This document shows, one piece after another, positions 2,781 through 36,059 of a stretch of 64,000 nucleotides of DNA. The first letter of the stretch is position 1. Each line of letters starts with the position of its first letter. Position numbers and translations under genes: made by a program. The stretch is from Sarcina sp. (GTDB lineage Bacteria > Bacillota > Clostridia > Clostridiales > Clostridiaceae): contig JBOGCE010000009.1 in assembly GCA_051656585.1 (NCBI GenBank), positions 49,020 through 113,019 on the forward strand, in the 5' to 3' direction. The notes under the pieces are model-generated. The model worked only from the letters and a program-made list of their open reading frames with translations. It made no database searches and was not told where the DNA came from.

Positions 2781-3120
2781 TTGATACACCTACTTTTTTC
2801 TTTATATTAGTTATAAAAAATAACTAAGGTCTTCTTAATTATATAACATTGAAATATAAAATCAATAGCCCTTAACTATAAATTAGGCATTTTGTATGAT
2901 TATTTTAAAGCGAATTTCTTGATTAGAGAATTTCAGAAATATGTAATATACTTTATATAAGAGGATTTTTAAATATTAAAATACTTCTAAGTTTATTTTT
3001 TTTAGCATAATAATTAAATTTAATAAAAATTAAAAAAATTAATAAATATCTTTAATTTTTTGGGAATAAATGGTAAAATTGTTTTATTGAATTTATCAAG
3101 TATGGAGGAAAGATTAAAAC

Positions 3121-8788: not shown

Positions 8789-9005
8789 AAAAAAGCCCAT
8801 CATCTCAATTAAGAGACGATGGGAATCGTGGTACCACTCTTATTAGAAAATAAAATATTATTTTCTCACTCAAATGCCATAAGGGAGCAGACCCTATGTG
8901 TTTTGCACATATGCTCGTAGGTAAGTTCATATTTTTATAACACTGTGTCACAGCAAACCACAATTCTCTGAAGATATAAAAAATACTAATACTCCTAGTC
9001 AATGC
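8789..9005 (-). promoter_or_regulatory. T-box riboswitch, Leu specifier (CUU)
   Basis: Minus strand: stem I with AGAGA/GCTGTGA elements and GAA-CTT specifier (8923-8925); T-box AGAGTGGTACCACG (8827-8840); terminator cccatcgtctc/gagatgatggg plus T-run. Confidence 0.9.
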
Positions 9006-9187
9006 TTTTCATATTTATTTGTTAATATATGAAATTATATATTATTTGTGTCTTAATAGTCAAGAAAATCTATTTAGAAAATTTGATCTATATTTTTATT
9101 CACAAATTTAAAAAAAATAGAATAAAATAAGAGTGATTAATATTAACTATAGTAAAATGAGAATTTAGCATTTATACTAAATAGTGC

Positions 9188-9215
9188 TTGACTTTATTAA
9201 TTATAATAGTATAAT
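9188..9215 (+). promoter_or_regulatory. SigA-type promoter of the aro operon leader
   Basis: TTGACT (9188-9193), 16 bp, TATAAT (9210-9215). Confidence 0.7.
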
Positions 9216-9252
9216 TAAATAAAATTGGAATTAATTTACAAAGGAGATCGTT

Positions 9253-9402
9253 ATGTTTTTAGATGTTGTTGAAAAAATATATTCATTTTTTTATAGCTTT
9301 TATTATGGCCTAAGCTTTTATTTTAGCATGGTTATATTTAGTATGAAAAAAATAATGAATTTGTATCTGATGGATTTAAAAACATATCTTACTCATAAAT
9401 AA
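9253..9402 (+). CDS. Putative Phe/Tyr-rich leader peptide of the aro operon (49 aa)
   Basis: AAGGAG RBS at 9241; MFLDVVEKIYSFFYSFYYGLSFYFSMVIFSMKKIMNLYLMDLKTYLTHK*; 10 of codons 10-24 are Phe or Tyr; below the ORF track cut-off. Confidence 0.6.
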   Translation: MFLDVVEKIYSFFYSFYYGLSFYFSMVIFSMKKIMNLYLMDLKTYLTHK

Positions 9403-9430
9403 TATTGGTAAATAAAGATTATTGTTTTAT

Positions 9431-9462
9431 AATAAGATTCATTAGTGAATCTTATTTTTTTT
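9431..9462 (+). terminator. Intrinsic terminator (putative attenuator) between the leader ORF and aroF
   Basis: aataagattca-ttag-tgaatcttatt (11-bp stem) followed by tttttt. Confidence 0.7.
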
Positions 9463-9568
9463 ATTGATTTTAATGTCAAATTGATTTCAAATCTTAACAA
9501 TAAATATATAATTGTCTGTTAGTATAGAAACTAGCGAAAAAAGGGTATTATAAAACAGGAGGGGCTAT

Positions 9569-10582
9569 ATGATAGTTATTTTAAAACCAAAAACAGAAGA
9601 AGTAGAGGTTAAAAAACTAGTCGATAAAATTCAAAGCTTAGGAGTAGACGTACAAGTGGTAAACGGAGAAGGAAAAAATATATTAGGATTAGTAGGCGAT
9701 ACAAGCAGAATTGATCCTAAAAAAATAGAGGCAAACGTAAATGTAGAAAGAGTTTGCAAAGTGCAAGAGCCTTATAAAAAGGCAAATAGAGTATTTCATC
9801 CAGAAAATTCAATATATGATATTTGTGGAAGAAAGGTTGGGGATAAGAAGTTAACTCTTATTGCTGGACCATGTTCTGTGGAAACACCAGAACAAATAAC
9901 AACAATTGCTAAGGAAGTTAAAGAAATTGGGGCAGGTTTCTTAAGAGGTGGAGCATTTAAACCAAGAACTTCGCCATATAGTTTCCAAGGATTAGAGATG
10001 GAAGGTTTAGAGCTATTAAAGCTTGCTAGAAAAGAAACAGGGCTTCCTATAGTTACAGAAATAATGTCAACAAGTATGATAGATAAGTTTGTTGATGATG
10101 TTGATGTAATTCAAGTTGGAGCTAGAAACATGCAAAACTTTGATTTATTAAAAGAACTTGGGAAGACTGATAAGCCAATTCTTTTAAAAAGAGGATTATC
10201 TGCTACAATAGAAGAATTTTTAATGTCAGCAGAATATATAATGGCAGGTGGAAATGAAAGAGTTATTCTTTGTGAAAGAGGAATTAGAACTTTTGAAACT
10301 TATACAAGAAATACTTTAGATTTAAGTGTAGTACCTGCTATTAAAAGACTAAGTCACTTACCAATAATAATAGATCCAAGTCATGCAGCAGGTATGAATT
10401 GGATGGTAGAACCATTATCAAAAGCTGCTGTAGCAGTTGGAGCGGATGGACTTATAATAGAAGTTCATAATGATCCTGATAATGCTTTATGTGACGGACA
10501 ACAATCTATAAAACCATCTGAGTATGCAAAGCTAGTTGATGATTTAAAACTTATCGCAAAAGCTGTAGATAGAGAGATATAA
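9569..10582 (+). CDS. aroF: 3-deoxy-7-phosphoheptulonate (DAHP) synthase, type I-beta with N-terminal ferredoxin-like regulatory domain
   Basis: [37 protein letters not shown] motifs. Confidence 0.95.
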
Positions 10583-11640
10583 TGAGAAAGTTAAGAGTTA
10601 ACTTAGAAGAAAGAAGTTATGATATTTTAATACAAAATAAGCTTAGACAAAATTTATCAGGGCATATAAGAGAGGTATATAATGGTAATAAAATTGCCGT
10701 TATTACAGATACAAATTTATTTTCTATTTACGGAAAGGAAATAAAAGCTAACCTTGAAGAGAATGATTTTGAAGTTAAGTTTATAGTTATAGAAGCAGGG
10801 GAGAAAAGCAAAAGCTTTTCTTCACTGCTACCTATATATAATGAACTTTTGGAATTTAAGCTTACAAGAAGTGATTTGATTTTAACTTTAGGTGGTGGTG
10901 TTGTTGGTGATTTAGGTGGTTTTGTTGCATCAACATTTTTACGTGGGGTTAATTTTATACAGATGCCTACGTCTCTTTTAGCACAAGTTGATTCTAGCGT
11001 TGGAGGTAAAGTTGGAGTAGACTTAGAGGCAGGGAAAAATTTAGTAGGAAGTTTTTATCATCCTAAAAGAGTTTTAATAGATACAGAAATGCTTAATACT
11101 CTTAGTGAAAAGTTTTTTAATGACGGACTAGGTGAAGTGATTAAATATGGCTGTATTAAGGATAAAGAATTATTTAATCTTTTAGAAGATTTTGAAAATA
11201 AAGAAGAATTAAAAGATAATATAGATGATATTATTTTTACTTGCTGTGATATAAAAAGACAGGTTGTAGAAAATGATGAAAGGGATACTGGCGAAAGAAT
11301 GCTTTTAAACTTTGGTCATACTCTTGGTCATGCAATAGAGAAGTTCTATAACTTTGAAATTTATAGTCATGGTGAAGCAGTTGCGATTGGGATGTATCAA
11401 ATTACTGCTATGAGTGAAAAAAATGGAGAAACGAAGATGGGAACTGCAAAAAGAATAAAGAGTATATTAAATAAGTATGATTTACCATTTGAATGTGATG
11501 TGATTAATGATGGTAATGAACAACTTATAGAAGCTATTAAGCTTGATAAGAAAAACTTAAATGATAGTTTAAATATAATTTTGATTAGAAGTATTGGGGA
11601 GAGTTATATATATAAAACTACTTATGAGTATTTTAAGTAA
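10582..11640 (+). CDS. aroB: 3-dehydroquinate synthase
   Basis: [38 protein letters not shown] motifs. Confidence 0.96.
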
Positions 11641-11654
11641 AGAGGGGCAAAGTG

Positions 11655-12941
11655 ATGACTGGTATAAAAATAAAAGGTAAAAAATTGGAAGGGACTGTGT
11701 CAGTTCCTCCTTCAAAAAGTATGGCACATAGAGCTGTTATATGTGCATCTCTTGCTAAAGGTGAAAGCATAATAAGTAATATAGACTTATCAGATGATAT
11801 TATTGCTACTATGGAAGCTATGAAATCTCTAGGGGCAAAGATTGATAAGATAGATAATAAAACATATAAAATAGATGGAAGTAACACATTTATGAATTTA
11901 CAAAATACAGTAATAGATTGTAATGAGTCAGGTTCTACTTTAAGATTTTTGGTTCCATTATCAATAGTTAAAGGAAATACTGTTAACTTTATTGGTAAAG
12001 GAAATCTAGGAAAAAGACCATTAGATATTTATTATGATATTTTCAAAAAGCAAGGAATAAAATATTCTTACGAAAATGATGTTTTAAATCTAAATATAAG
12101 TGGGCAGATAAAAGGAGAAATTTTCAATATTCTTGGAAATATTAGTTCTCAATTTATAAGTGGACTTATGTTTGCTTTACCTTTATTAGATAATGATTCT
12201 AAAATAATAATAACTACAGAACTTGAGTCAAAAGGATATTTAGATCTTACTTTATCTATGCTTGAAAGATTTGGTATTACTATTATAAATAATAATTATA
12301 AGGAATTTATAATATCAGGAAGACAAAAATATAAGCCATTTGATTATAGAGTAGAAGGTGATTATTCACAAGCTGCTTTTTATCTTGTAGCAGGTTTTTT
12401 AGGTAGTAAGGTTGGAATAAGAGACTTAGATCTTGAATCATTACAGGGTGATAAAGAGGCTATTGAAATTCTTGAAAATATGGGCGGAAGAATAGTTATA
12501 GAAAATAAAACTATAGGTGTTTGTAAATCGTCTGAAGAGGAATCTGTAATAGATGCATCAGGATGTCCAGATGTAATTCCTGTAATAGCAGTAGCAGCAG
12601 CACTTACAAAGGGAACAACAAAAATTATTAATGCGAAAAGACTTAGAATAAAAGAATGTGATAGACTTAGTGCAATTGCTATGGAACTTAATAAACTTGG
12701 TGCAAAAGTTTATGAATTTGAAGATAGCTTGGTAATTGAAGGTGTAGAGGTTCTAAATGGCTCAAGAGTATCAAGTCATGATGATCATAGAATAGCTATG
12801 AGTATGGCTATTGCATCAACTAAGTGTAATGGAGATATAATTTTAGATAATCCAAATTGTGTTTCAAAATCATATCCTGATTTTTGGAATGATTTTGAGA
12901 GTTTAGGAGGTGAGTTTAGTGAGTGGAACATGGGGGAATAA
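11655..12941 (+). CDS. aroA: 3-phosphoshikimate 1-carboxyvinyltransferase (EPSP synthase)
   Basis: PPSKSMAHRA, ESGSTLRF, SSQFISGL, KECDRL, DDHRIAM motifs. Confidence 0.96.
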   Translation: MTGIKIKGKKLEGTVSVPPSKSMAHRAVICASLAKGESIISNIDLSDDIIATMEAMKSLGAKIDKIDNKTYKIDGSNTFMNLQNTVIDCNESGSTLRFLVPLSIVKGNTVNFIGKGNLGKRPLDIYYDIFKKQGIKYSYENDVLNLNISGQIKGEIFNILGNISSQFISGLMFALPLLDNDSKIIITTELESKGYLDLTLSMLERFGITIINNNYKEFIISGRQKYKPFDYRVEGDYSQAAFYLVAGFLGSKVGIRDLDLESLQGDKEAIEILENMGGRIVIENKTIGVCKSSEEESVIDASGCPDVIPVIAVAAALTKGTTKIINAKRLRIKECDRLSAIAMELNKLGAKVYEFEDSLVIEGVEVLNGSRVSSHDDHRIAMSMAIASTKCNGDIILDNPNCVSKSYPDFWNDFESLGGEFSEWNMGE

Positions 12942-13998
12942 TATAGAGTTATCAATTTTTGGAGAATCTCATGGGAAGGCTATAGGTATTGTGATTAATG
13001 GTATTAAAGCTGGAACGAAGATAGATATGGAAAAAGTAGAACTAGAACTAGAAAGAAGAGCACCAGGGAGAGATAAACTTTCTACTGCAAGAAAAGAGGC
13101 TGATAAGCCTATTATTTTATCGGGAATTTTTGAAGGTATTGCAACAGGAACTCCTATTACAATGATGATAGAAAATAGTGATACAAGATCACGAGATTAT
13201 TCTAAAACTAAAGATTTAATGAGACCAGGACATGCTGATTATTCAGGGTTTGTTAGATATAATGGTTTTAATGATTACAGAGGTGGAGGACATTTTTCAG
13301 GAAGAATAACTGCACCATTAGTTTTTGCGGGGGCAATTGCAAAACAAGTTTTAGAGAGCAAAGGAATATTTATAGGTGCACATATAAAGTCAGTTGAATC
13401 TATTGAAGATTCATATTTTGATACAGTATCTTTAGACAAAGTGATTTTTGAAAATTTACTAAAAAAGGAATTACCTGTTTTAGATGATAGTAAAATAGAA
13501 TCTATTAAAGATGCAATAATGACAGCAAAAAAAGAAGCAGATTCTGTAGGTGGAGTTATAGAGACAGCAGTAATTGGATTAGAAGCTGGGGTAGGCTCAC
13601 CATTTTTTGACTCAGTAGAGAGTAAAATTGCCTCATTAGCTTTTTCAGTTCCAGCTGTTAAAGGTATAGAATTTGGTATGGGCTTTAATGTAACAAAGGT
13701 TAGAGGGTCAAAAGCAAATGATGAATATTATATACAAGATAAAAAAATAAAAGCTTATTCTAATAATAATGGAGGTATAATAGGTGGGATTACAAATGGT
13801 ATGCCTGTTATATACAGAGTTGCTATTAAGCCAACTGCGTCAATTAGCAAAGAGCAAAGAACTATTAATATAGCTAATATGGAAAATGAAACTATTAGAA
13901 TAGAAGGTAGACATGATCCTTGTATAGTTCAAAGAGCAGTAGTTGTTATAGAAGCGATAACAGCAATTGCGATATTAGAACTTTTAAGTGATAAGTAA
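12919..13998 (+). CDS. aroC: Chorismate synthase
   Basis: FGESHG, RPGHAD, GGGHFSGRITA, GRHDPC motifs; GTG at 12919 follows AGGAGG. Confidence 0.96.
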   Translation: MSGTWGNNIELSIFGESHGKAIGIVINGIKAGTKIDMEKVELELERRAPGRDKLSTARKEADKPIILSGIFEGIATGTPITMMIENSDTRSRDYSKTKDLMRPGHADYSGFVRYNGFNDYRGGGHFSGRITAPLVFAGAIAKQVLESKGIFIGAHIKSVESIEDSYFDTVSLDKVIFENLLKKELPVLDDSKIESIKDAIMTAKKEADSVGGVIETAVIGLEAGVGSPFFDSVESKIASLAFSVPAVKGIEFGMGFNVTKVRGSKANDEYYIQDKKIKAYSNNNGGIIGGITNGMPVIYRVAIKPTASISKEQRTINIANMENETIRIEGRHDPCIVQRAVVVIEAITAIAILELLSDK

Positions 13999-14037
13999 AA
14001 TATTTTTATCAAGTTGTATGATAAAGGAGAAATAGGG

Positions 14038-15153
14038 ATGAAAGATTTAAGCTATTGTAGAAAGCGAATAGATGAGATAGATGAAAAACTGATGGAACTT
14101 TTTGAAGAGAGAATGAATATAGTGGTAGATGTTGCAAGGTACAAAGCACAAAATAATTTACCTATATTTCATAAAGATAGGGAAGATGAAGTAATTAGAA
14201 AAAATGTTGATAGAATTAAAAGTAATGCATTGAAGAAACATGCTGAAAAAATGTTACATGAACTTATGGATATAAGTAAAGACTATCAATGTGAAAATAT
14301 AGGTAAAAGAGAGGCCGCTTTATCTAAAGGAAGAGAAGTTAAGTTAGGATTTCAAGGTGATTTAGGTTCTTTTGGAGAAGAGGCGTTGATTAAATATTTT
14401 GGAGAGGGCTATGAAAAAACAAATTATGAAGAATTTGAAGATATTTTTGTAGCATTGAAATTTTTTGAGATAGATTATGGTGTGTTGCCTATTGAAAATT
14501 CATCAACAGGTTCAATCACAAAAGTATATGATTTGTTAAAAAAATATAATTTCCATATAGTTGGAGAAACTCAGCTTAAAATAGAACAAAATCTTTTAGG
14601 TATAAAGGGATCAAAAATAAGTGATTTGAAAGAAATTTACTCACATAGTCAAGGCTTTGAACAAAGTAGTGAGTATTTAAAAACTCTTACAAATGTTAAA
14701 AATATACCTTATCACAACACAGCTATTAGTGCTAAATATGTGAGCGAATGTAAAGATAAGACTAAAGGTGCTATTGCAGGACTTAGAGCTGCTAAAATTT
14801 ATAATTTAGAGATTTTAAAAAGGGATATTAACAATGCAAAAGAAAATAATACAAGATTTGTGATTATAGGTAGAGATTTAGAGTCTAATGAACTTTGTGA
14901 TAAACTTACAATAGCTTTTTCTGTATTGAATAAAGCAGGGAGTTTGTATAAGCAACTAGAAGTTTTTTCAGAAAAAGGTATTAATATGATAAAGATAGAA
15001 TCTAGACCTATGGGGAATGGATCATTCAATTATTTCTTTTATGTAGATATTGATGGAAATATAGATAATATAGAAGTTAAAGAGGCTTTGGATATTATTA
15101 AAAATTCAACTGAAGATTTTAGAATATTAGGAGCATATAAAAGACAAGGATAG
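14038..15153 (+). CDS. pheA: Chorismate mutase / prephenate dehydratase
   Basis: N-terminal CM (RKRIDEIDEKL), PIENSSTG, NNTRFVI, ACT domain with IESRP. Confidence 0.93.
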   Translation: MKDLSYCRKRIDEIDEKLMELFEERMNIVVDVARYKAQNNLPIFHKDREDEVIRKNVDRIKSNALKKHAEKMLHELMDISKDYQCENIGKREAALSKGREVKLGFQGDLGSFGEEALIKYFGEGYEKTNYEEFEDIFVALKFFEIDYGVLPIENSSTGSITKVYDLLKKYNFHIVGETQLKIEQNLLGIKGSKISDLKEIYSHSQGFEQSSEYLKTLTNVKNIPYHNTAISAKYVSECKDKTKGAIAGLRAAKIYNLEILKRDINNAKENNTRFVIIGRDLESNELCDKLTIAFSVLNKAGSLYKQLEVFSEKGINMIKIESRPMGNGSFNYFFYVDIDGNIDNIEVKEALDIIKNSTEDFRILGAYKRQG

Positions 15154-15165
15154 AGGTGTTCGAAA

Positions 15166-15984
15166 GTGAAAGTTTTTGGTTTAATAGGTGAAAAGTTAGG
15201 ACACAGTTTATCTCCAAATATACATGAGGATTTATATGAGCATTTAAATATGAATGCAAAATATAATTTATTTCCTATTGATAAGGAGAATATAAAAAAT
15301 GCTGTAAGTAGTTTAAAGGTATTAGGAATTACAGGGGTTAATGTTACAATTCCATATAAAGAGATAGTGATGGAACAGTTAGATTATATATCTGATGAGG
15401 CTAAAAAAATAGGTGCTATAAATACTATTCTTATAAAAGATAATAAAACATATGGATATAACACTGATTATTATGGTTTTAAATCTATGCTAGATAAGGA
15501 TAATGTTATTATAGAAGGTAATGAATTTTATGTTTTAGGATCTGGAGGAGCAGCAAAAGCTATAATACAATGTCTTTTAGATTTTGCTGCTAGTAAAGTA
15601 GTTGTTGTATCAAGAGATAGAAGCCAAGCACAAAAAAAATTCACAGATAAAAGATTAGATTTTATAACATATGAAGATTTAAGGTTTATAAAAAAATCTT
15701 ATGCAGTAGTGAATACAACACCTTGTGGAATGTATCCTAAGATAGATACTAGCCCTATAGAAAAAGATATATTATCAAAGTTTGGACTAGCTATAGATAT
15801 AGTCTATAATCCTGAAGAAACAAAGTTTTTAAAAGACTCTAAATTAGAGGGGCTAAAAATAGTAAAAGGTCTTTATATGCTTGTTGCACAAGCTATGAAG
15901 TCAGAAGAAATATGGAATGATATTAATATTTCTAATGAAATAGAAAATAATATTTTTGAAAAGCTTGCAGTTAAATTCAGATAA
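15166..15984 (+). CDS. aroE: Shikimate dehydrogenase
   Basis: HSLSP, NVTIPYK, GAINT, NTDYYG, GSGGAA motifs. Confidence 0.95.
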   Translation: MKVFGLIGEKLGHSLSPNIHEDLYEHLNMNAKYNLFPIDKENIKNAVSSLKVLGITGVNVTIPYKEIVMEQLDYISDEAKKIGAINTILIKDNKTYGYNTDYYGFKSMLDKDNVIIEGNEFYVLGSGGAAKAIIQCLLDFAASKVVVVSRDRSQAQKKFTDKRLDFITYEDLRFIKKSYAVVNTTPCGMYPKIDTSPIEKDILSKFGLAIDIVYNPEETKFLKDSKLEGLKIVKGLYMLVAQAMKSEEIWNDINISNEIENNIFEKLAVKFR

Positions 15985-15999
15985 AGGAAGTGCTAAAGT

Positions 16000-16497
16000 A
16001 TGACTAAAGGTATAGTACTAATTGGAATGCCTGGTTGTGGTAAAACAACTCTAGGGTTTGAAGTGGCAAAAAAGCTTAATTTAAAATTTATTGATATGGA
16101 TGATTTTATAGAAAGAAGTACTAAAAAGAGTATTGTTGAAATTTTTGAAAAAGATGGAGAAGAAATATTTAGACACTATGAAACTAAAACGTGTGAAGTT
16201 TTATCTAGACTTGATAATGTTTTGATTTCTACTGGTGGTGGAGTTGTTAAAAGAGCTGAAAATATGGCATATTATGATTCTTTTACAAAAGTATTTATAA
16301 ATAGGCCTTTAGAACTTATTCTTTCAGATGTAGATATGCAGAGTAGACCTCTTTTAAAGGATGGGAAAGAAAAGCTAATAACATTGTATAGAGAAAGAAT
16401 AGATTTATATAATCAGTTTGCTGATATAATTGTAATTAATGATGGAGATATAGAAACTATAGTAGATGAAGTTATATCAAAAGTAACTAGTATGTAG
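16000..16497 (+). CDS. aroK: Shikimate kinase
   Basis: GMPGCGKTT P-loop and STGGG motif. Confidence 0.95.
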   Translation: MTKGIVLIGMPGCGKTTLGFEVAKKLNLKFIDMDDFIERSTKKSIVEIFEKDGEEIFRHYETKTCEVLSRLDNVLISTGGGVVKRAENMAYYDSFTKVFINRPLELILSDVDMQSRPLLKDGKEKLITLYRERIDLYNQFADIIVINDGDIETIVDEVISKVTSM

Positions 16498-16566
16498 CTA
16501 TGTGAAAAATTTTATAAATAGAGAAATTTTTAGTGAATTAAAATAGATAGTATAGTAGGTGAGGAT

Positions 16567-17007
16567 ATGAAGATTAAACTTATAAATGGACCTAATTTAA
16601 ATCTTTTGGGGATAAGAGAGAAGAATATTTATGGTAAAAAAGATTTTAATGATATTGTTAATGAAGTAGTTTTAGAGGGGAAAAAATTAGGGCATGAAAT
16701 AGTTAGTTTTCAGAGCAATATAGAAGGTGAAATTATAAATGAAATACATAATGCTTATTTTGATAAGTATGATGGAATTATAATTAATCCGGGTGCATAT
16801 ACACATTATAGCATTGCTATATATGATGCTTTGAAAGGTGTAGATATACCAACAGTGGAGGTTCATCTTAGTAATATTCATAAAAGGGAAGAGTTTAGAC
16901 ATAAGTCAGTAATAGCACCAGCATGTATAGGACAAATTTGTGGTTTTGGTGATTATGGATATATTTTAGGTATTAAGGCTTTAGAAAATTATATTAAAAA
17001 TAAATAA
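16567..17007 (+). CDS. aroQ: Type II 3-dehydroquinate dehydratase
   Basis: NGPNLNLLGIRE..IYG, INPGAYTHYS, EVHLSNIH motifs. Confidence 0.96.
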   Translation: MKIKLINGPNLNLLGIREKNIYGKKDFNDIVNEVVLEGKKLGHEIVSFQSNIEGEIINEIHNAYFDKYDGIIINPGAYTHYSIAIYDALKGVDIPTVEVHLSNIHKREEFRHKSVIAPACIGQICGFGDYGYILGIKALENYIKNK

Positions 17008-17046
17008 AAGAATATGTATATTCAATTAGATAAGGGGGAGTTTTTA

Positions 17047-17886
17047 ATGAATATAACATTAGTTGGACTTGGTGTCATAGGGGGCTCTATAGGTCTTAGT
17101 TTACGAGGAAAAATATATGGGGTTAATGTTTTTGGAATTGATCTTAATAGTGAAACGATAGAAAAAGCTTTTGAATTAGGTATTATAGAAGAGGGTGCTA
17201 TTAGTGATACATCTGAAGCTGATGAACTAATAAGTAGCTCTGATATTATAATTTTAAGTATTTATCCAGAAGATATAAAAATATTCATGAATAAATATAA
17301 AGATTGTTTTAAAGAAAATACAATAGTAATTGATACATCAGGTGTTAAAAACAAAGTGGTTAATTTAGAAATTCCAAAAAATGTTGATTTCGTTTTAGTT
17401 CATCCTATGGCTGGAAGAGAAAAAAAAGGAATAGAATTTGCATCAAGGAAAGTTTTCATAGGGGCAAATTTTATTATTACTAAAACGCCTAATAATAAGG
17501 ATGAAAATATAGAGCAAGTTAAATATTTAGCTCAAAAGATGGGATTTACTAATGTTGTAGAGACTACAGTTGAAACTCATGATGATATTATAGCATTTAC
17601 AAGTCAATTACCACATGCAATTGCTGTTGCCTTAGTAAATAGTGATAATTTGACTATAAATACAGGTTCTTTTACTGGGGATTCATATAAAGAAATAACT
17701 AGAATAGCAAATATAAATGAAATACTATGGAGTCAGTTATTTTTAAGTAATAAAGAAAATTTGCTTACAAAAATAGAATGTTTTGAGAAATCTCTAGATC
17801 AAATTAAAAATGCGTTAAAGAATGAGGATGAAAAAATTCTAAAAGAATTATTTGTAAATGCAGCAGAAAAAAGAAAAAAGTTATAA
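17047..17886 (+). CDS. tyrA: Prephenate dehydrogenase
   Basis: GLGVIGGS Rossmann motif, HPMAGRE, HDDIIAFTSQLPH. Confidence 0.93.
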   Translation: MNITLVGLGVIGGSIGLSLRGKIYGVNVFGIDLNSETIEKAFELGIIEEGAISDTSEADELISSSDIIILSIYPEDIKIFMNKYKDCFKENTIVIDTSGVKNKVVNLEIPKNVDFVLVHPMAGREKKGIEFASRKVFIGANFIITKTPNNKDENIEQVKYLAQKMGFTNVVETTVETHDDIIAFTSQLPHAIAVALVNSDNLTINTGSFTGDSYKEITRIANINEILWSQLFLSNKENLLTKIECFEKSLDQIKNALKNEDEKILKELFVNAAEKRKKL

Positions 17887-34350: not shown

Positions 34351-34439
34351 ATAAAAAATTTTTTTGAAAAATTTTATTTTAATTGTAGCATATTTAGTTG
34401 TATTAGAGTATAGTATATATCAACAAGGAAAAAATAAAA

Positions 34440-34808
34440 TCTTAGAGTGAAGATAGTAATCATAAGGAAAATATTTCAGCGAGCTACAGACTGGTGAAAA
34501 GGTAGTAATATTGATTGTGATGAATGGGTTCATTAGATGCGAAGGGGAAATGCAAAAAGTATCCTAAGCCCTGTCCTCAGGTTACAGAGGTAGAATATCG
34601 AATAAGTTGATTAGATAATTTTTTGAAAAGTGTCTAAATATTTTATTCCGTATTTGAAGCAATGAGTTTAGCTTGTGATGAAGTTTTATCATATATATTT
34701 AAAAGTAATTTTTGATATAATAGGATATTTACATAGTCAGAAGATATTAAATTTGGGTGGCAACACGGTATTATCGTCCCATATAGGGAGATAGTACCGT
34801 TTTTTTTA
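34440..34808 (+). promoter_or_regulatory. T-box riboswitch, Trp specifier (UGG)
   Basis: Stem I with AGCGAG/CTGGTGAA and GAA-TGG (34525-34527); T-box GGGTGGCAACACGG (34755-34768); terminator ggtattatc..ccc/ggg..gatagtacc plus T-run. Confidence 0.9.
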
Positions 34809-34883
34809 TTCTAAATTACTCAAACTAGTATTTCTAAGATTAACAATCCTTGAATTTTAATTAAAAAATTGGAGGTATTTATT

Positions 34884-36059
34884 ATGACTGGTTATTTTGG
34901 TGAATTTGGAGGACAATATGTTCCAGAACCTGTACAAAAAGCATTAGCAGAACTTGAAAGGGCTTATAATGAGTATAAAGATGATAAAAATTTTAGAGAT
35001 GAGTATGAGTATTATTTAAAACAATATGTAGGAAGACCTTCACCTTTGTATTTTGCACAAAGATTAACTGAAAAAATCGGTGGGGGAAAAATTTATTTAA
35101 AAAGAGAAGATTTAAATCACACAGGAGCACACAAAATTAATAATGTTATTGGTCAAATTTTACTTGCAAAAAGAATGGGAAAACACAAAGTTATTGCAGA
35201 AACAGGCGCTGGACAGCATGGAGTTGCAACTGCTACAGTAGCAGCACTTATGGGGTTAGAGTGTGATGTATATATGGGAGAAATGGATACTCAAAGACAA
35301 GCTTTAAATGTTTTTAAAATGGAACTTTTAGGTGCGAAGGTCATTGCTGTAAAAGAAGGAACACGAAGCTTAAAAGAAGCAGTTGATGCTGCACTTATGG
35401 CATATGTAAATGAGGTTGAATCTAGTTTTTATGTTTTAGGGTCAGCAGTTGGACCACATCCATATCCTACAATAGTTAAAGATTTCCAAAGTGTTATAAG
35501 TAAGGAGATACATGAGCAAATTTTAGAACAAGAAGATAAACTTCCTGATACGGTTATAGCATGTGTAGGTGGTGGAAGTAATGCTATTGGAGCTTTTGCA
35601 GAGTTTTTAGATAAGCCAGAAGTAAAGCTTATAGGAGTAGAGGCAGCAGGACATGGAATAGAGACAAATATGCATGCAGCGACAATAACATTAGGACAAG
35701 AAGCTATAGTGCATGGCATGAAAACTATTTGTATTGTTGATGAAGATGGAGAAGCTAAGGAAGTGTATTCAATTTCAGCAGGATTAGATTATCCAGGAGT
35801 AGGGCCAGAACATGCTAATTTATATAAATCTGGTAGAGCTGAATATCATTATATTACAGATGCAGAAGCTGTTGATGCATTTAAAGAGCTAACAGAACTT
35901 GAAGGTATTATTCCAGCTATAGAAAGTTCTCATGCAATAGCCTATGTTATGAAATATGCTAAAAGTGCACCAAAAGATGAAATTATAGTAGTTAATTTAT
36001 CAGGTCGTGGAGATAAGGATGTAGATCAAATCAAAAATTATTTGAAGAATAAAAAATAA
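34884..36059 (+). CDS. trpB: Tryptophan synthase beta chain (stand-alone)
   Basis: [16 protein letters not shown] (PLP lysine), [42 protein letters not shown]. Confidence 0.96.

What the first reader, a model, noticed from the sequence alone, without database searches (positions are those of the whole stretch)
9188..9462. Phe/Tyr leader-peptide attenuator candidate in front of a nine-gene clostridial aro-pheA-tyrA operon
Seen: a SigA promoter (9188-9215), then an AAGGAG RBS and a 49-codon ORF (9253-9402). Codons 10-24 (YSFFYSFYYGLSFYF) are 10/15 Phe or Tyr; the ORF has 7 Phe, 7 Tyr and 0 Trp. An 11-bp terminator with a T-run (9431-9462) lies about 105 nt before aroF. ATCTTA (9386-9391), near the ORF stop, is complementary to TAAGAT (9433-9438) in the terminator's left arm. 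A ribosome stalled at the F/Y codons would leave that segment free to act as an antiterminator, while a ribosome reaching the stop would cover it. No T-box motif is present. Established: ribosome-mediated attenuation is the Proteobacterial pheA/trp mechanism, whereas Firmicutes mostly use T-boxes, as leuS and trpB do in this window. Inference: one leader reads both Phe- and Tyr-tRNA charging, matching an operon that ends in pheA and tyrA with no trp branch. Caveat: U-rich DNA produces TTT/TAT codons easily, and the antiterminator helix is only 6 bp.
Basis: partly seen in the sequence, partly recalled or inferred. Interest (0 to 1): 0.82.

Follow-up and report, generated by a model that had tools for sequence, protein, structure and literature searches.

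The report
Aromatic leader-peptide attenuator before aroF
A short upstream reading frame packed with phenylalanine and tyrosine codons, followed by a terminator hairpin, sits in front of the aromatic amino-acid operon and recurs in many Firmicutes, so it is most likely a ribosome-sensed on/off switch: a known kind of switch, but a family I could not find described.

Summary

Homologous F/Y(/W)-rich leader ORFs with a downstream terminator precede aroF in 23 of 80 orthologous loci (Clostridiaceae, Sedimentibacter, Pelosinus, Megasphaera). A gene-blind metagenome pattern scan found 15 more, all directly upstream of aroF or pheA-aroF. A profile search found 78 clusters at 90% identity (181 representatives at 50%), all unnamed.

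The proposed 6-bp antiterminator is wrong. The conserved one is CUGAUGGAUUU (9367-9377) pairing with AAGAUUCAUUAG (9434-9445). It has compensatory changes across the family, and its 5' arm occurs in all three reading frames.

Most likely mechanism: a ribosome stalled at the F/Y codons leaves this arm free, giving read-through. A ribosome that translates on removes it, giving termination.

Precedents exist: Corynebacterium glutamicum aroF leader (F-Y-F), the Acholeplasma uORFC-13-1 candidate, and E. coli pheL. It is therefore a new member of a known kind.

One feature is unexplained: non-aromatic residues are deeply conserved (consensus YFYFSWGFYFSAGYFC). No experiment exists.

The parts
9188..9215 (+). 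Sigma-70-type promoter P1 (TTGACT-16-TATAAT) of the leader and aro operon
   Evidence: 11 of 12 matches. Both hexamers are invariant in the six closest relatives while the spacer varies.
9241..9246 (+). Shine-Dalgarno AAGGAG of the leader ORF
   Evidence: An SD-like core 5-11 nt before the ATG is present in 32 of 39 family members.
9253..9402 (+). Leader ORF, 49 codons plus stop
   Evidence: Homologous ORFs lie upstream of aroF in 23 of 80 genome loci, 15 metagenome loci and 3 sampled profile hits.
9280..9324 (+). Regulatory F/Y codon cluster (codons 10-24, YSFFYSFYYGLSFYF); one more Phe at codon 29 (9337-9339)
   Evidence: The core is conserved with synonymous and F<->Y substitutions.
9346..9352 (+). 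A-run (Lys-Lys codons) after the cluster; it pairs with the terminator 3' arm and U-tract in the predicted extended antiterminator
   Evidence: A comparable A-run (KK) is present in many but not all members.
9352..9363 (+). Segment 2a (ATAATGAATTTG), a second copy of the antiterminator arm, seen only in the window and L001
   Evidence: duplex with segment 3 is -8.5 kcal/mol.
9367..9377 (+). Segment 2b, the conserved antiterminator 5' arm (CTGATGGATTT); family motif (C/U)UAAUGAG
   Evidence: -10.5 kcal/mol. Covariation is shown. The motif occurs in all three frames relative to the ORF.
9379..9428 (+).
   Evidence: Seen only in the window clade; no covariation test was possible.
9431..9456 (+). 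Intrinsic terminator hairpin (5' arm 9431-9441, loop 9442-9445, 3' arm 9446-9456). The antiterminator 3' arm (9435-9445) overlaps its 5' arm and loop.
   Evidence: A hairpin plus T-run is present in 39 of 39 family leaders.
9455..9462 (+). T8 tract of the terminator
9569..17886 (+). Regulated operon aroF-aroB-aroA-aroC-pheA(CM-PDT-ACT)-aroE-aroK-aroQ-tyrA; aroF SD AGGAGG at 9557-9562
   Evidence: No promoter-like site lies between 9463 and 9568.

Best explanation
This is a ribosome-mediated (leader-peptide) transcription attenuator that sets aro-pheA-tyrA operon expression according to the supply of charged tRNA-Phe and tRNA-Tyr.

Transcription starts at P1 (9188-9215) and a ribosome initiates on the leader ORF at 9253. 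Three outcomes follow.

1. Phe and Tyr plentiful. The ribosome runs through the F/Y cluster and over segment 2 (9352-9377) towards the stop at 9400. Segment 2 cannot pair with segment 3, so the hairpin 9431-9456 plus T8 forms. Transcription ends 106 nt before aroF.
2. Either charged tRNA scarce. The ribosome stalls within codons 10-24 (9280-9324), at least 40 nt upstream of segment 2b. Segment 2b then pairs with the terminator's 5' arm and loop (9435-9445) as soon as these are made. The terminator cannot form and RNA polymerase reads into aroF.
3. No ribosome. For this window the naked leader is predicted to terminate, because segment 2 pairs with the start of the ORF.

Shown here: all sequence elements; conservation of the ORF, frame, aromatic codons and terminator; strict linkage to aroF; covariation of the 2:3 helix.

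Inferred: stalling, the tRNA-charging signal, and the actual effect on read-through.
For: Linkage to aroF
- 23 of 80 aroF-anchored loci from distant Firmicutes carry a homologous SD+ATG ORF with an aromatic core and a terminator.
- A scan that used only the peptide-coding pattern found 15 further family ORFs. All 15 lie directly upstream of aroF (14) or pheA-aroF (1).
- Three profile-search hits sampled from named genomes also lie directly upstream of an FXD-type DAHP synthase, with unrelated upstream neighbours.

Evidence that the ORF is translated and selected for its aromatic core
- Core codons change synonymously or F<->Y. The N-terminus and tail vary freely.
- L001 (99% AroF identity) has a +1 frameshift that rewrites the last 16 residues.

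Antiterminator
- On 21 leaders, 79.7% of cells are paired against 27-46% in slid registers.
- Four pairs show compensatory changes.
- The covariation score is 0.296 against 0.170 in shuffles, reached by 0 of 500 shuffles.
- Members with unrelated terminators have matching unrelated arms, for example L015 at -18.3 kcal/mol, ranked best among 39 leaders.
- The arm motif occurs in all three reading frames, 11/6/3, so it is an RNA constraint.
- The arm is always inside the ORF or overlapped by its stop.

Folding
- Window: P(antiterminator) is 0.75-0.85 when RNA is free from 9300-9340. P(terminator) is about 1 for the naked leader and when free RNA starts at 9350 or later.
- Family snapshots: the terminator 5' arm is pre-paired at 0.63 with a stalled ribosome, against 0.42 with the ribosome at the stop (p=5e-5) and 0.54 in shuffled controls (p=0.007).

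Context
- Relatives L012 and L021 have a T-box in the same place, so this position is a regulatory slot.
- No promoter-like site lies between the terminator and aroF.
- A premature termination event in the aroF 5' UTR of C. difficile, with no known riboregulator, has been reported (PMC8237595).
Against: - There are no experimental data for this or any family member. I could not check whether the C. difficile leader belongs to the family.
- The RNA is AU-rich, and folding z-scores against shuffles are weak (-2.0 and -0.1).
- Single-sequence duplex energies are only about 1-2 sd better than shuffled or foreign leaders.
- In most family members the terminator dominates at equilibrium whatever the 5' truncation, so kinetic control must be assumed.
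- No anti-antiterminator is conserved across the family.
- In this window the stop codon lies about 30 nt beyond segment 2b. A ribosome parked at the stop would not physically cover the arm.
- The mini-alignment used for covariation was anchored on motifs I chose.
- Non-aromatic residues are conserved more than codon sensing requires.
- Transcription and translation are reported to be poorly coupled in at least Bacillus subtilis (my own knowledge; not checked here). That would demand polymerase pausing, which is not shown here.
Confidence: 0.8

Rival explanations
1. Sequence-specific nascent-peptide arrest. The conserved peptide (YFYFSWGFYFSAGYFC) stalls the ribosome through the exit tunnel, possibly in response to free Phe/Tyr or another ligand as TnaC does with Trp. 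Hungry codons would not be the main signal. The RNA switch downstream would be the same.
For: Ser, Gly, Ala, Cys and Trp positions are conserved across Clostridia, Negativicutes, Cellulosilyticum and Hydrogenoanaerobacterium, while the third codon positions of Ala and Gly vary. That points to amino-acid-level selection, which codon sensing does not need.
Against: F and Y interchange freely and their ratio drifts: Tyr-rich in Sedimentibacter, L026 and L036. The window's own clade has lost W and the SAGYFC motif yet keeps the aromatic codons. With 10 of 15 aromatic codons, the cluster is what classical attenuators look like. No known arrest motif was recognised by eye.
Confidence: 0.08
2. An RNA-only element, such as a riboswitch or a protein-binding leader. 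The U-rich conserved core would be the ligand- or protein-binding site and the ORF would be incidental.
For: Nucleotide conservation of the core is high (TTTTATTTTAGC). Ser is always AGC or AGT. Segment 2 is clearly constrained at the RNA level.
Against: SD, ATG and reading frame are conserved in 32-39 of 39 members. Core substitutions are synonymous or F<->Y. No stable conserved structure was found in the core. No Rfam family matches. UAG triplets are too sparse for TRAP-type binding (by inspection).
Confidence: 0.05
3. An independent small hydrophobic protein gene with its own promoter and terminator. aroF would then be transcribed separately.
For: The ORF has its own promoter, SD and terminator. 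Gene callers in public data predict it as a 'hypothetical protein'. A promoter-like site at 9405-9433 lies inside the leader.
Against: The only conserved neighbour is aroF, always downstream on the same strand. No promoter-like site lies between the terminator and aroF. The C-terminal third tolerates frameshifts and variable stops. The terminator's 5' arm covaries with a segment inside the ORF.
Confidence: 0.04
4. A chance ORF in U-rich intergenic DNA next to an ordinary terminator.
For: The DNA is 19% GC, so TTT and TAT codons are cheap. Fold z-scores are weak.
Against: The cluster has about 0.8% probability by composition. It is conserved far beyond neutral expectation in lineages whose AroF is only 55-70% identical.
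Confidence: 0.01

Closest known systems
Corynebacterium glutamicum aroF leader peptide (Phe-Tyr-Phe motif; Mentz et al. 2013, PMC4046766). From my memory it was later named aroR by Neshat et al. 2014; I did not read that paper here.
   Same: A short leader ORF directly upstream of a DAHP synthase gene. It contains both Phe and Tyr codons and is interpreted as a ribosome-mediated attenuator that reads both amino acids.
   Different: It is from Actinobacteria and has only a three-codon F-Y-F motif in a very short peptide. The family here is 32-70 aa, has 8-10 aromatic codons, and has a conserved non-aromatic scaffold. Sequence relatedness was not tested because I had no C. glutamicum sequence.
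uORFC-13-1 motif (Brewer et al. 2021, RNA Biol, PMC8632094)
   Same: A candidate uORF with promoter, RBS, Phe codons and an adjacent terminator, found exclusively upstream of aroF in a Firmicutes-related lineage.
   Different: It is reported only from Acholeplasma and environmental sequences (24 examples) and is described as coding at least one Phe. The Acholeplasmatales aroF loci fetched here (L024, L027, L030) have an upstream gene ending 22-69 nt before aroF and no member of the present family. Identity of the two motifs could not be tested.
E. coli pheL-pheA and pheM-pheST attenuators (Rfam Phe_leader; pheL reviewed in PMC3082878)
   Same: The logic is the same: hungry aromatic codons in a leader ORF decide between antiterminator and terminator.
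   Different: They are Phe only, about 15 codons, and have the classical 1:2 / 2:3 / 3:4 structure with the stop before segment 2. There is no Rfam match here. In this family segment 2 lies inside the ORF and no conserved 1:2 helix was found.
T-box leaders of aro genes in Firmicutes
   Same: Same regulatory slot and same signal (tRNA charging). Relatives L012 (Hathewaya proteolytica) and L021 have a T-box before aroF. This genome uses T-boxes for leuS and a TrpB-like gene.
   Different: A T-box binds uncharged tRNA directly and reads one specifier codon without translation. Here no T-box is present, and two or three amino acids can be read at once.
Ribosome-mediated transcription attenuation in Bacillus subtilis (bmrB-bmrCD, PMC4191407; vmlR, PMC9226507; listed)
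   Same: These show that leader-ORF translation can control an intrinsic terminator in Firmicutes.
   Different: They sense antibiotic-stalled ribosomes, not amino-acid supply.

Membership tests
Leader-peptide (ribosome-mediated) transcription attenuators, as a class | A short ORF with SD and start codon in the 5' leader of a biosynthetic operon | tested here: met
   AAGGAG plus ATG at 9241-9255. The same holds in 32-39 of 39 relatives.
Leader-peptide (ribosome-mediated) transcription attenuators, as a class | Clustered codons for the end-product amino acid(s) | tested here: met
   10 of 15 F/Y codons; about 0.8% by chance; conserved across the family. The operon makes Phe and Tyr.
Leader-peptide (ribosome-mediated) transcription attenuators, as a class | An intrinsic terminator between the leader ORF and the first structural gene | tested here: met
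   Hairpin 9431-9456 plus T8. Present in 39 of 39 family members.
Leader-peptide (ribosome-mediated) transcription attenuators, as a class | An antiterminator helix mutually exclusive with the terminator, with its 5' arm within reach of the translating or terminating ribosome | tested here: met
   9367-9377 pairs with 9435-9445. Covariation is shown. The arm lies inside the ORF or overlaps its stop in all members examined.
Leader-peptide (ribosome-mediated) transcription attenuators, as a class | An anti-antiterminator (1:2) pairing that gives termination without translation | tested here: inconclusive
   Predicted for the window: the naked leader gives P(terminator)=1.0. The same is seen in a few relatives, but not as a family-wide feature.
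Leader-peptide (ribosome-mediated) transcription attenuators, as a class | Read-through depends on leader translation and on aminoacyl-tRNA supply | not testable with these tools
   This needs reporter, term-seq or Ribo-seq experiments.
Rfam leader families (Phe_leader, leu/phe leader, and the Trp, His, Thr and Leu leaders) | A match to the covariance model | tested here: not met
   No hit in 9000-9600 at E<=10 apart from one chance viral pseudoknot. No hits on eight related loci at the gathering score.
T-box riboswitch (RF00230) | Specifier loop plus the T-box sequence, i.e. a covariance-model match | tested here: not met
   The only T-boxes in the window are at 8809-9011 (minus strand) and 34434-34784 (plus strand).
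uORFC-13-1 (Acholeplasma aroF uORF candidate) | A match to the published consensus sequence and structure | not testable with these tools
   The consensus is not available here, and Rfam 15 gave no hit on the Acholeplasmatales locus L024. Only the description could be compared.
Corynebacterium aroF (aroR) leader | Sequence homology of the leader peptide and RNA | not tested
   I had no C. glutamicum sequence. Only the functional analogy comes from PMC4046766.
Regulatory nascent-chain arrest peptides (TnaC, SecM, Erm leaders) | A conserved peptide sequence required for stalling, independent of codon choice | tested here: inconclusive
   Non-aromatic residues are conserved with synonymous variation, which is compatible. 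Stalling itself cannot be tested here.

The most novel reading that the evidence does not exclude
The leader would be more than a string of hungry codons. It would be a deeply conserved arrest or sensor peptide (YFYFSWG-FYFSAG-YFC) whose Ser, Gly, Ala, Cys and Trp scaffold acts in the ribosome tunnel. It might tune or gate stalling, possibly in response to free aromatic amino acids. It might also trap frameshifted ribosomes through the out-of-frame UAGs created by the invariant UUU-AGC junctions. That would make it a new class of amino-acid-sensing nascent peptide, shared by Clostridia and Negativicutes.
Probability: 0.1. Interest if true: 0.85.

Novelty: new member of a known kind. Interest (0 to 1): 0.55.

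Why it matters
Amino-acid biosynthesis in Firmicutes is usually described as controlled by T-boxes, riboswitches or RNA-binding proteins. Leader-peptide attenuation is treated as mainly a proteobacterial and actinobacterial device.

This window carries one member of a widespread small-ORF family. It has at least 181 representatives at 50% identity and is unnamed in every source consulted. It is absent from Rfam 15 and matches no Pfam-A model. It appears to give Clostridia, Tissierellales and Negativicutes a single switch that reads Phe and Tyr together, and Trp too in most members, at the entry to the shikimate pathway.

It matters in four ways.
- It would let these 32-70-aa 'hypothetical proteins' be annotated correctly.
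- It offers a candidate explanation for the unexplained premature termination seen upstream of aroF in C. difficile, if that leader proves homologous.
- It gives a natural test case for how ribosome-mediated attenuation works in lineages where transcription and translation may be poorly coupled.
- Removing the leader is an obvious lever for aromatic-compound production in anaerobes.

Tried and rejected
It is only -3.8 kcal/mol, is not conserved in L002-L005, and is predicted to sit inside a linker hairpin instead.
- Rfam at gathering score and at E<=10 on the leader, and at gathering score on eight related loci. Nothing was found except T-boxes elsewhere. Pfam on the peptide also found nothing.
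- A conserved 1:2 anti-antiterminator. The window's TCATT is not conserved, and the family snapshot test shows no difference between naked and stalled states.
- Equilibrium switching as a general family property. It holds for about 8 of 39 leaders (the window, L004, L006/L007, L008, L013, L020, L128). Elsewhere the terminator always wins, so kinetic control must be assumed.
- TRAP-like (G/U)AG repeats. They are too few and too widely spaced (inspection).
- A promoter between the terminator and aroF. No site passes the scan. By my own count on the sequence, TTGATT at 9481 has 18-20-nt spacing to poor -10 candidates.
- The gene-blind metagenome pattern was noisy. About 100 of the 120 loci returned were unrelated F/S-rich repeats or coding regions.
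- Fetching the C. difficile aroF leader. No collection at hand holds it, and the paper's supplements are not held.
- Two literature searches returned only irrelevant papers or an error.
Full report
**1. Observation.**
- Promoter-like TTGACT-16-TATAAT lies at 9188-9215 (11 of 12 matches).
- AAGGAG lies at 9241-9246, and an ATG ORF runs 9253-9402. It encodes MFLDVVEKIYSFFYSFYYGLSFYFSMVIFSMKKIMNLYLMDLKTYLTHK (7 Phe, 7 Tyr, no Trp; codons 10-24 are 10/15 F or Y).
- The hairpin AATAAGATTCA-TTAG-TGAATCTTATT lies at 9431-9456 and runs into T8 (9455-9462), 106 nt before aroF.
- The nine downstream ORFs are aroF (FXD-type DAHP synthase), aroB, aroA, aroC, pheA (CM-PDT-ACT), aroE, aroK, aroQ and tyrA.
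- Upstream and divergent is leuS with a T-box at 8809-9011.
- Rfam finds nothing in the leader even at E<=10. Pfam finds nothing in the peptide.
- AroF is 99% identical to that of a 'Sarcina sp.' MAG.

**2. Chance.** The window is 28.7% GC and the intergenic region 18.9% GC.
- Only two stop-free 15-codon windows with 10 or more F/Y exist in all six frames of the 64 kb.
- A sequence with the intergenic composition produces one in about 0.8% of trials.
- This is suggestive but not decisive. The fold energies of this AU-rich RNA are not remarkable either (z = -2.0 and -0.1).

**3. Conservation, which is the decisive evidence.**
- I fetched 80 aroF loci from one genome per species.
  - In 23 of them a short ORF with an SD and ATG, an aromatic core and a downstream hairpin plus T-run lies just upstream of aroF.
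  - They include Clostridium mediterraneense, C. massiliamazoniense, other Clostridiaceae, Sedimentibacter, Pelosinus, Megasphaera and further Bacillota. AroF identity falls to about 55-60%.
- I then searched metagenome contigs with nothing but a degenerate pattern for the peptide core.
  - Most hits were noise. The 15 that were short ORFs of this family all sit directly upstream of aroF (14) or pheA-aroF (1).
- A profile of the peptides found 78 clusters at 90% identity, all 'hypothetical protein' or unnamed and without Pfam domains.
  - It found 181 representatives at 50% identity among 1.84 billion proteins. Nearly all are 32-70 aa and match from residue 1.
- Three hits from named genomes (Hydrogenoanaerobacterium saccharovorans, Cellulosilyticum sp., Clostridium grantii) again lie directly upstream of an FXD-type DAHP synthase, with unrelated upstream neighbours.
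- Two relatives, Hathewaya proteolytica L012 and a Sedimentibacter MAG L021, have a T-box in the same slot.

**4. The ORF is read as codons.**
- Among the six closest sequences, the core changes by synonymous substitutions (TAT/TAC, CTA/TTA, GTT/GTC, AGT/AGC), F<->Y, or Ser/Gly/Asn swaps. The N-terminal codons and everything after the Lys-Lys codons vary freely.
- L001, whose AroF is 99% identical, has one extra A in the A-run. This rewrites the last 16 residues, yet the ORF ends 3 nt from the window's stop.
- F and Y interchange throughout the family and the ratio drifts. It is Tyr-rich in Sedimentibacter, L026 and L036. A separate Phe-only leader occurs in Desulfobacterales.
- This is the signature of a regulatory leader, not of a functional small protein.

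**5. RNA switch.** All 39 leaders examined have a hairpin plus T-run.
- The segment that best pairs with the terminator's 5' arm and loop lies at a conserved distance, usually 100-126 nt from the start codon.
- In most members it is (C/U)UAAUGAG pairing with CUCAUUAG.
- In the window it is CUGAUGGAUUU (9367-9377) pairing with AAGAUUCAUUAG (9434-9445): 11 pairs including three G-U, -10.5 kcal/mol, against -9.2 for the terminator hairpin.
- I built a 21-sequence alignment anchored on the two motifs.
  - 79.7% of cells pair, against 27-46% in slid registers.
  - Four pairs show compensatory changes: A-U/G-C at the AUGA(A/G)U:A(U/C)UCAU position, A-U/C-G in Megasphaera, and U-A/C-G in Pelosinus.
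  - The covariation score is 0.296 against 0.170, reached by 0 of 500 shuffles.
- Members with unrelated terminators carry matching unrelated arms. Examples are L015 GGAAAGCCCGUUA:GGAUGGGCUUUCA, L006 AAGAGCC:GGCUCU and L142 GGAGAACCUUU:AAGAGGUUCUU.
- The arm motif falls in all three reading frames relative to the ORF (11, 6 and 3 cases). It encodes L-M-x or x-N-E, or contains the stop codon. It is therefore conserved as RNA.
- It is always inside the ORF or overlapped by the stop.

**6. Window-specific behaviour.**
- Partition-function folding predicts the terminator with probability about 1 for the naked leader, because segment 2 pairs with the start of the ORF.
- The antiterminator has probability 0.75-0.85 when the RNA is free only from 9300-9340, which mimics a ribosome stalled in the F/Y cluster.
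- The terminator returns to about 1 once free RNA starts at 9350 or later.
- The extended antiterminator uses the A-run (9346-9352) and a second arm copy (9352-9363) against the 3' arm and U-tract.
- This three-state behaviour is what a classical attenuator shows, but it rests on nearest-neighbour energies of AU-rich helices.
- At equilibrium, only about 8 of 39 family members behave this way.
- In co-transcriptional snapshots, taken before the 3' arm exists, the terminator's 5' arm is pre-paired more often with a ribosome stalled at the cluster (0.63). The values are 0.42 with a ribosome at the stop (p=5e-5) and 0.54 with shuffled upstream RNA (p=0.007). Naked RNA does not differ from stalled RNA.

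**7. Mechanism.** The best-supported reading is a leader-peptide transcription attenuator.
- Ribosomes slowed at Phe or Tyr codons leave segment 2 free to capture the terminator's 5' arm, so the aro operon is transcribed.
- Ribosomes that run on through segment 2 let the terminator form.
- Shown: the parts, their conservation, their linkage to aroF, and covariation of the antiterminator.
- Inferred: stalling, the signal, and the effect on transcription.
- A peculiarity of this window (and L001 and L004) is that a 1-nt indel has moved the stop about 30 nt past segment 2b. The terminating ribosome would then sit between segments 2 and 3 rather than on segment 2.

**8. Comparison with what is known.** The kind is known.
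- E. coli pheL and pheM are the classical examples.
- C. glutamicum has an aroF leader peptide with Phe-Tyr-Phe (PMC4046766).
- The Breaker laboratory described uORFC-13-1, an aroF uORF candidate confined to Acholeplasma (PMC8632094).
- Ribosome-mediated transcription attenuation operates in B. subtilis for antibiotic sensing.
- A premature termination event with no known riboregulator was mapped in the aroF 5' UTR of C. difficile (PMC8237595). I could not obtain that sequence.
- The present family matches no Rfam model. I found no description of it in six relevant full-text searches.
- I therefore file it as a new member of a known kind.

**9. What remains odd.**
- The peptide is far better conserved than a string of hungry codons needs to be: YFYFSWG(Y)FYFSAGYFC(C)KK from Clostridium to Megasphaera, with varying third positions in the Ala and Gly codons.
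- Ser is always AGC or AGT after a T-ending codon, which places a UAG in another frame.
- The window's clade is a divergent member: Trp is replaced by Leu, and SAGYFC by SMVIFS.
- A role for the nascent chain, a frameshift trap, or simply constraints on peptide solubility are all open.

**10. Limits.**
- There are no experimental data.
- The metagenome members were selected by a core pattern, so their core conservation is by construction, although their genomic context is not.
- The covariation alignment was motif-anchored.
- The sequences are related, so shuffle statistics overstate independence.
- Thermodynamic predictions in 19% GC RNA are soft.

Noticed in passing
window 9405-9433 (+): A promoter-like TTGGTA-17-TATAAT lies inside the leader, with its -10 abutting the terminator's 5' arm. 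Both hexamers and the 17-nt spacing are invariant in the window and L001-L005 while the spacer sequence varies. It is seen only in this clade (7 of 39 leaders against 1.1 expected). A transcript started there would lack the terminator's 5' arm, giving unattenuated basal aro expression.
   Followed up: partly
window 9481-9499 (+): The conserved block TTGATTTCAAATCTTAACA lies between the terminator and aroF in the window and L001-L003. It contains the inverted repeat GATTT-C-AAATC. Its role is unknown; it could be an operator or an RNA element.
   Followed up: no
window 9221-9240 (+): The 5' UTR block AAATTGGAATTAATTTACA, just downstream of the -10, is invariant in the six closest relatives but is not seen in more distant family members.
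   Followed up: no
window 34434-34784 (+): A second T-box below the Rfam gathering score (63 bits, E=2e-11, unusually long at 351 nt) precedes a 396-aa PALP enzyme (TrpB-like) at 34869-36059. The Trp branch therefore seems to be T-box-controlled, while the leader here has no Trp codon.
   Followed up: partly
L052, L056-L058, L062, L064-L066, L069, L071-L074 (about 100-400 nt upstream of aroF at 3001, or of the match start given): Desulfobacterales aroF loci carry a different, Phe-only leader ORF that ends ...F(I/N)FGRFFFFRSVHPV*. This looks like a separate conserved leader-peptide family.
   Followed up: no
L012:2667-2931 and L021 (about 100-350 nt upstream of aroF): Hathewaya proteolytica and a Sedimentibacter MAG have a T-box in front of aroF where their relatives have the leader peptide. 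The two tRNA-charging sensors appear to be interchangeable in evolution.
   Followed up: partly
L026, L034, L036, L037, L038 (upstream of aroF): These loci carry variant aromatic leaders, for example MVNSSFNNLNCIYYYYLGYYYSKGNLLCN and MDNQSNLTNCTYYSYYYPGYWSGQFVVQLNKM. L026 and L036 use the same UAAUG(A/G)G:CUCAUUA antiterminator/terminator pairing. Atopococcus (Lactobacillales, L037) has ...IFYFSFYFSN.
   Followed up: partly
window 9343-9364 versus L001: The window and L001 carry a tandem second copy of the antiterminator arm (ATAATGAATTTG). They differ by one A in the A7/A8 run, which shifts the leader frame. Homopolymer length variation therefore changes the leader's C-terminus without moving its stop by more than 3 nt.
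   Followed up: partly
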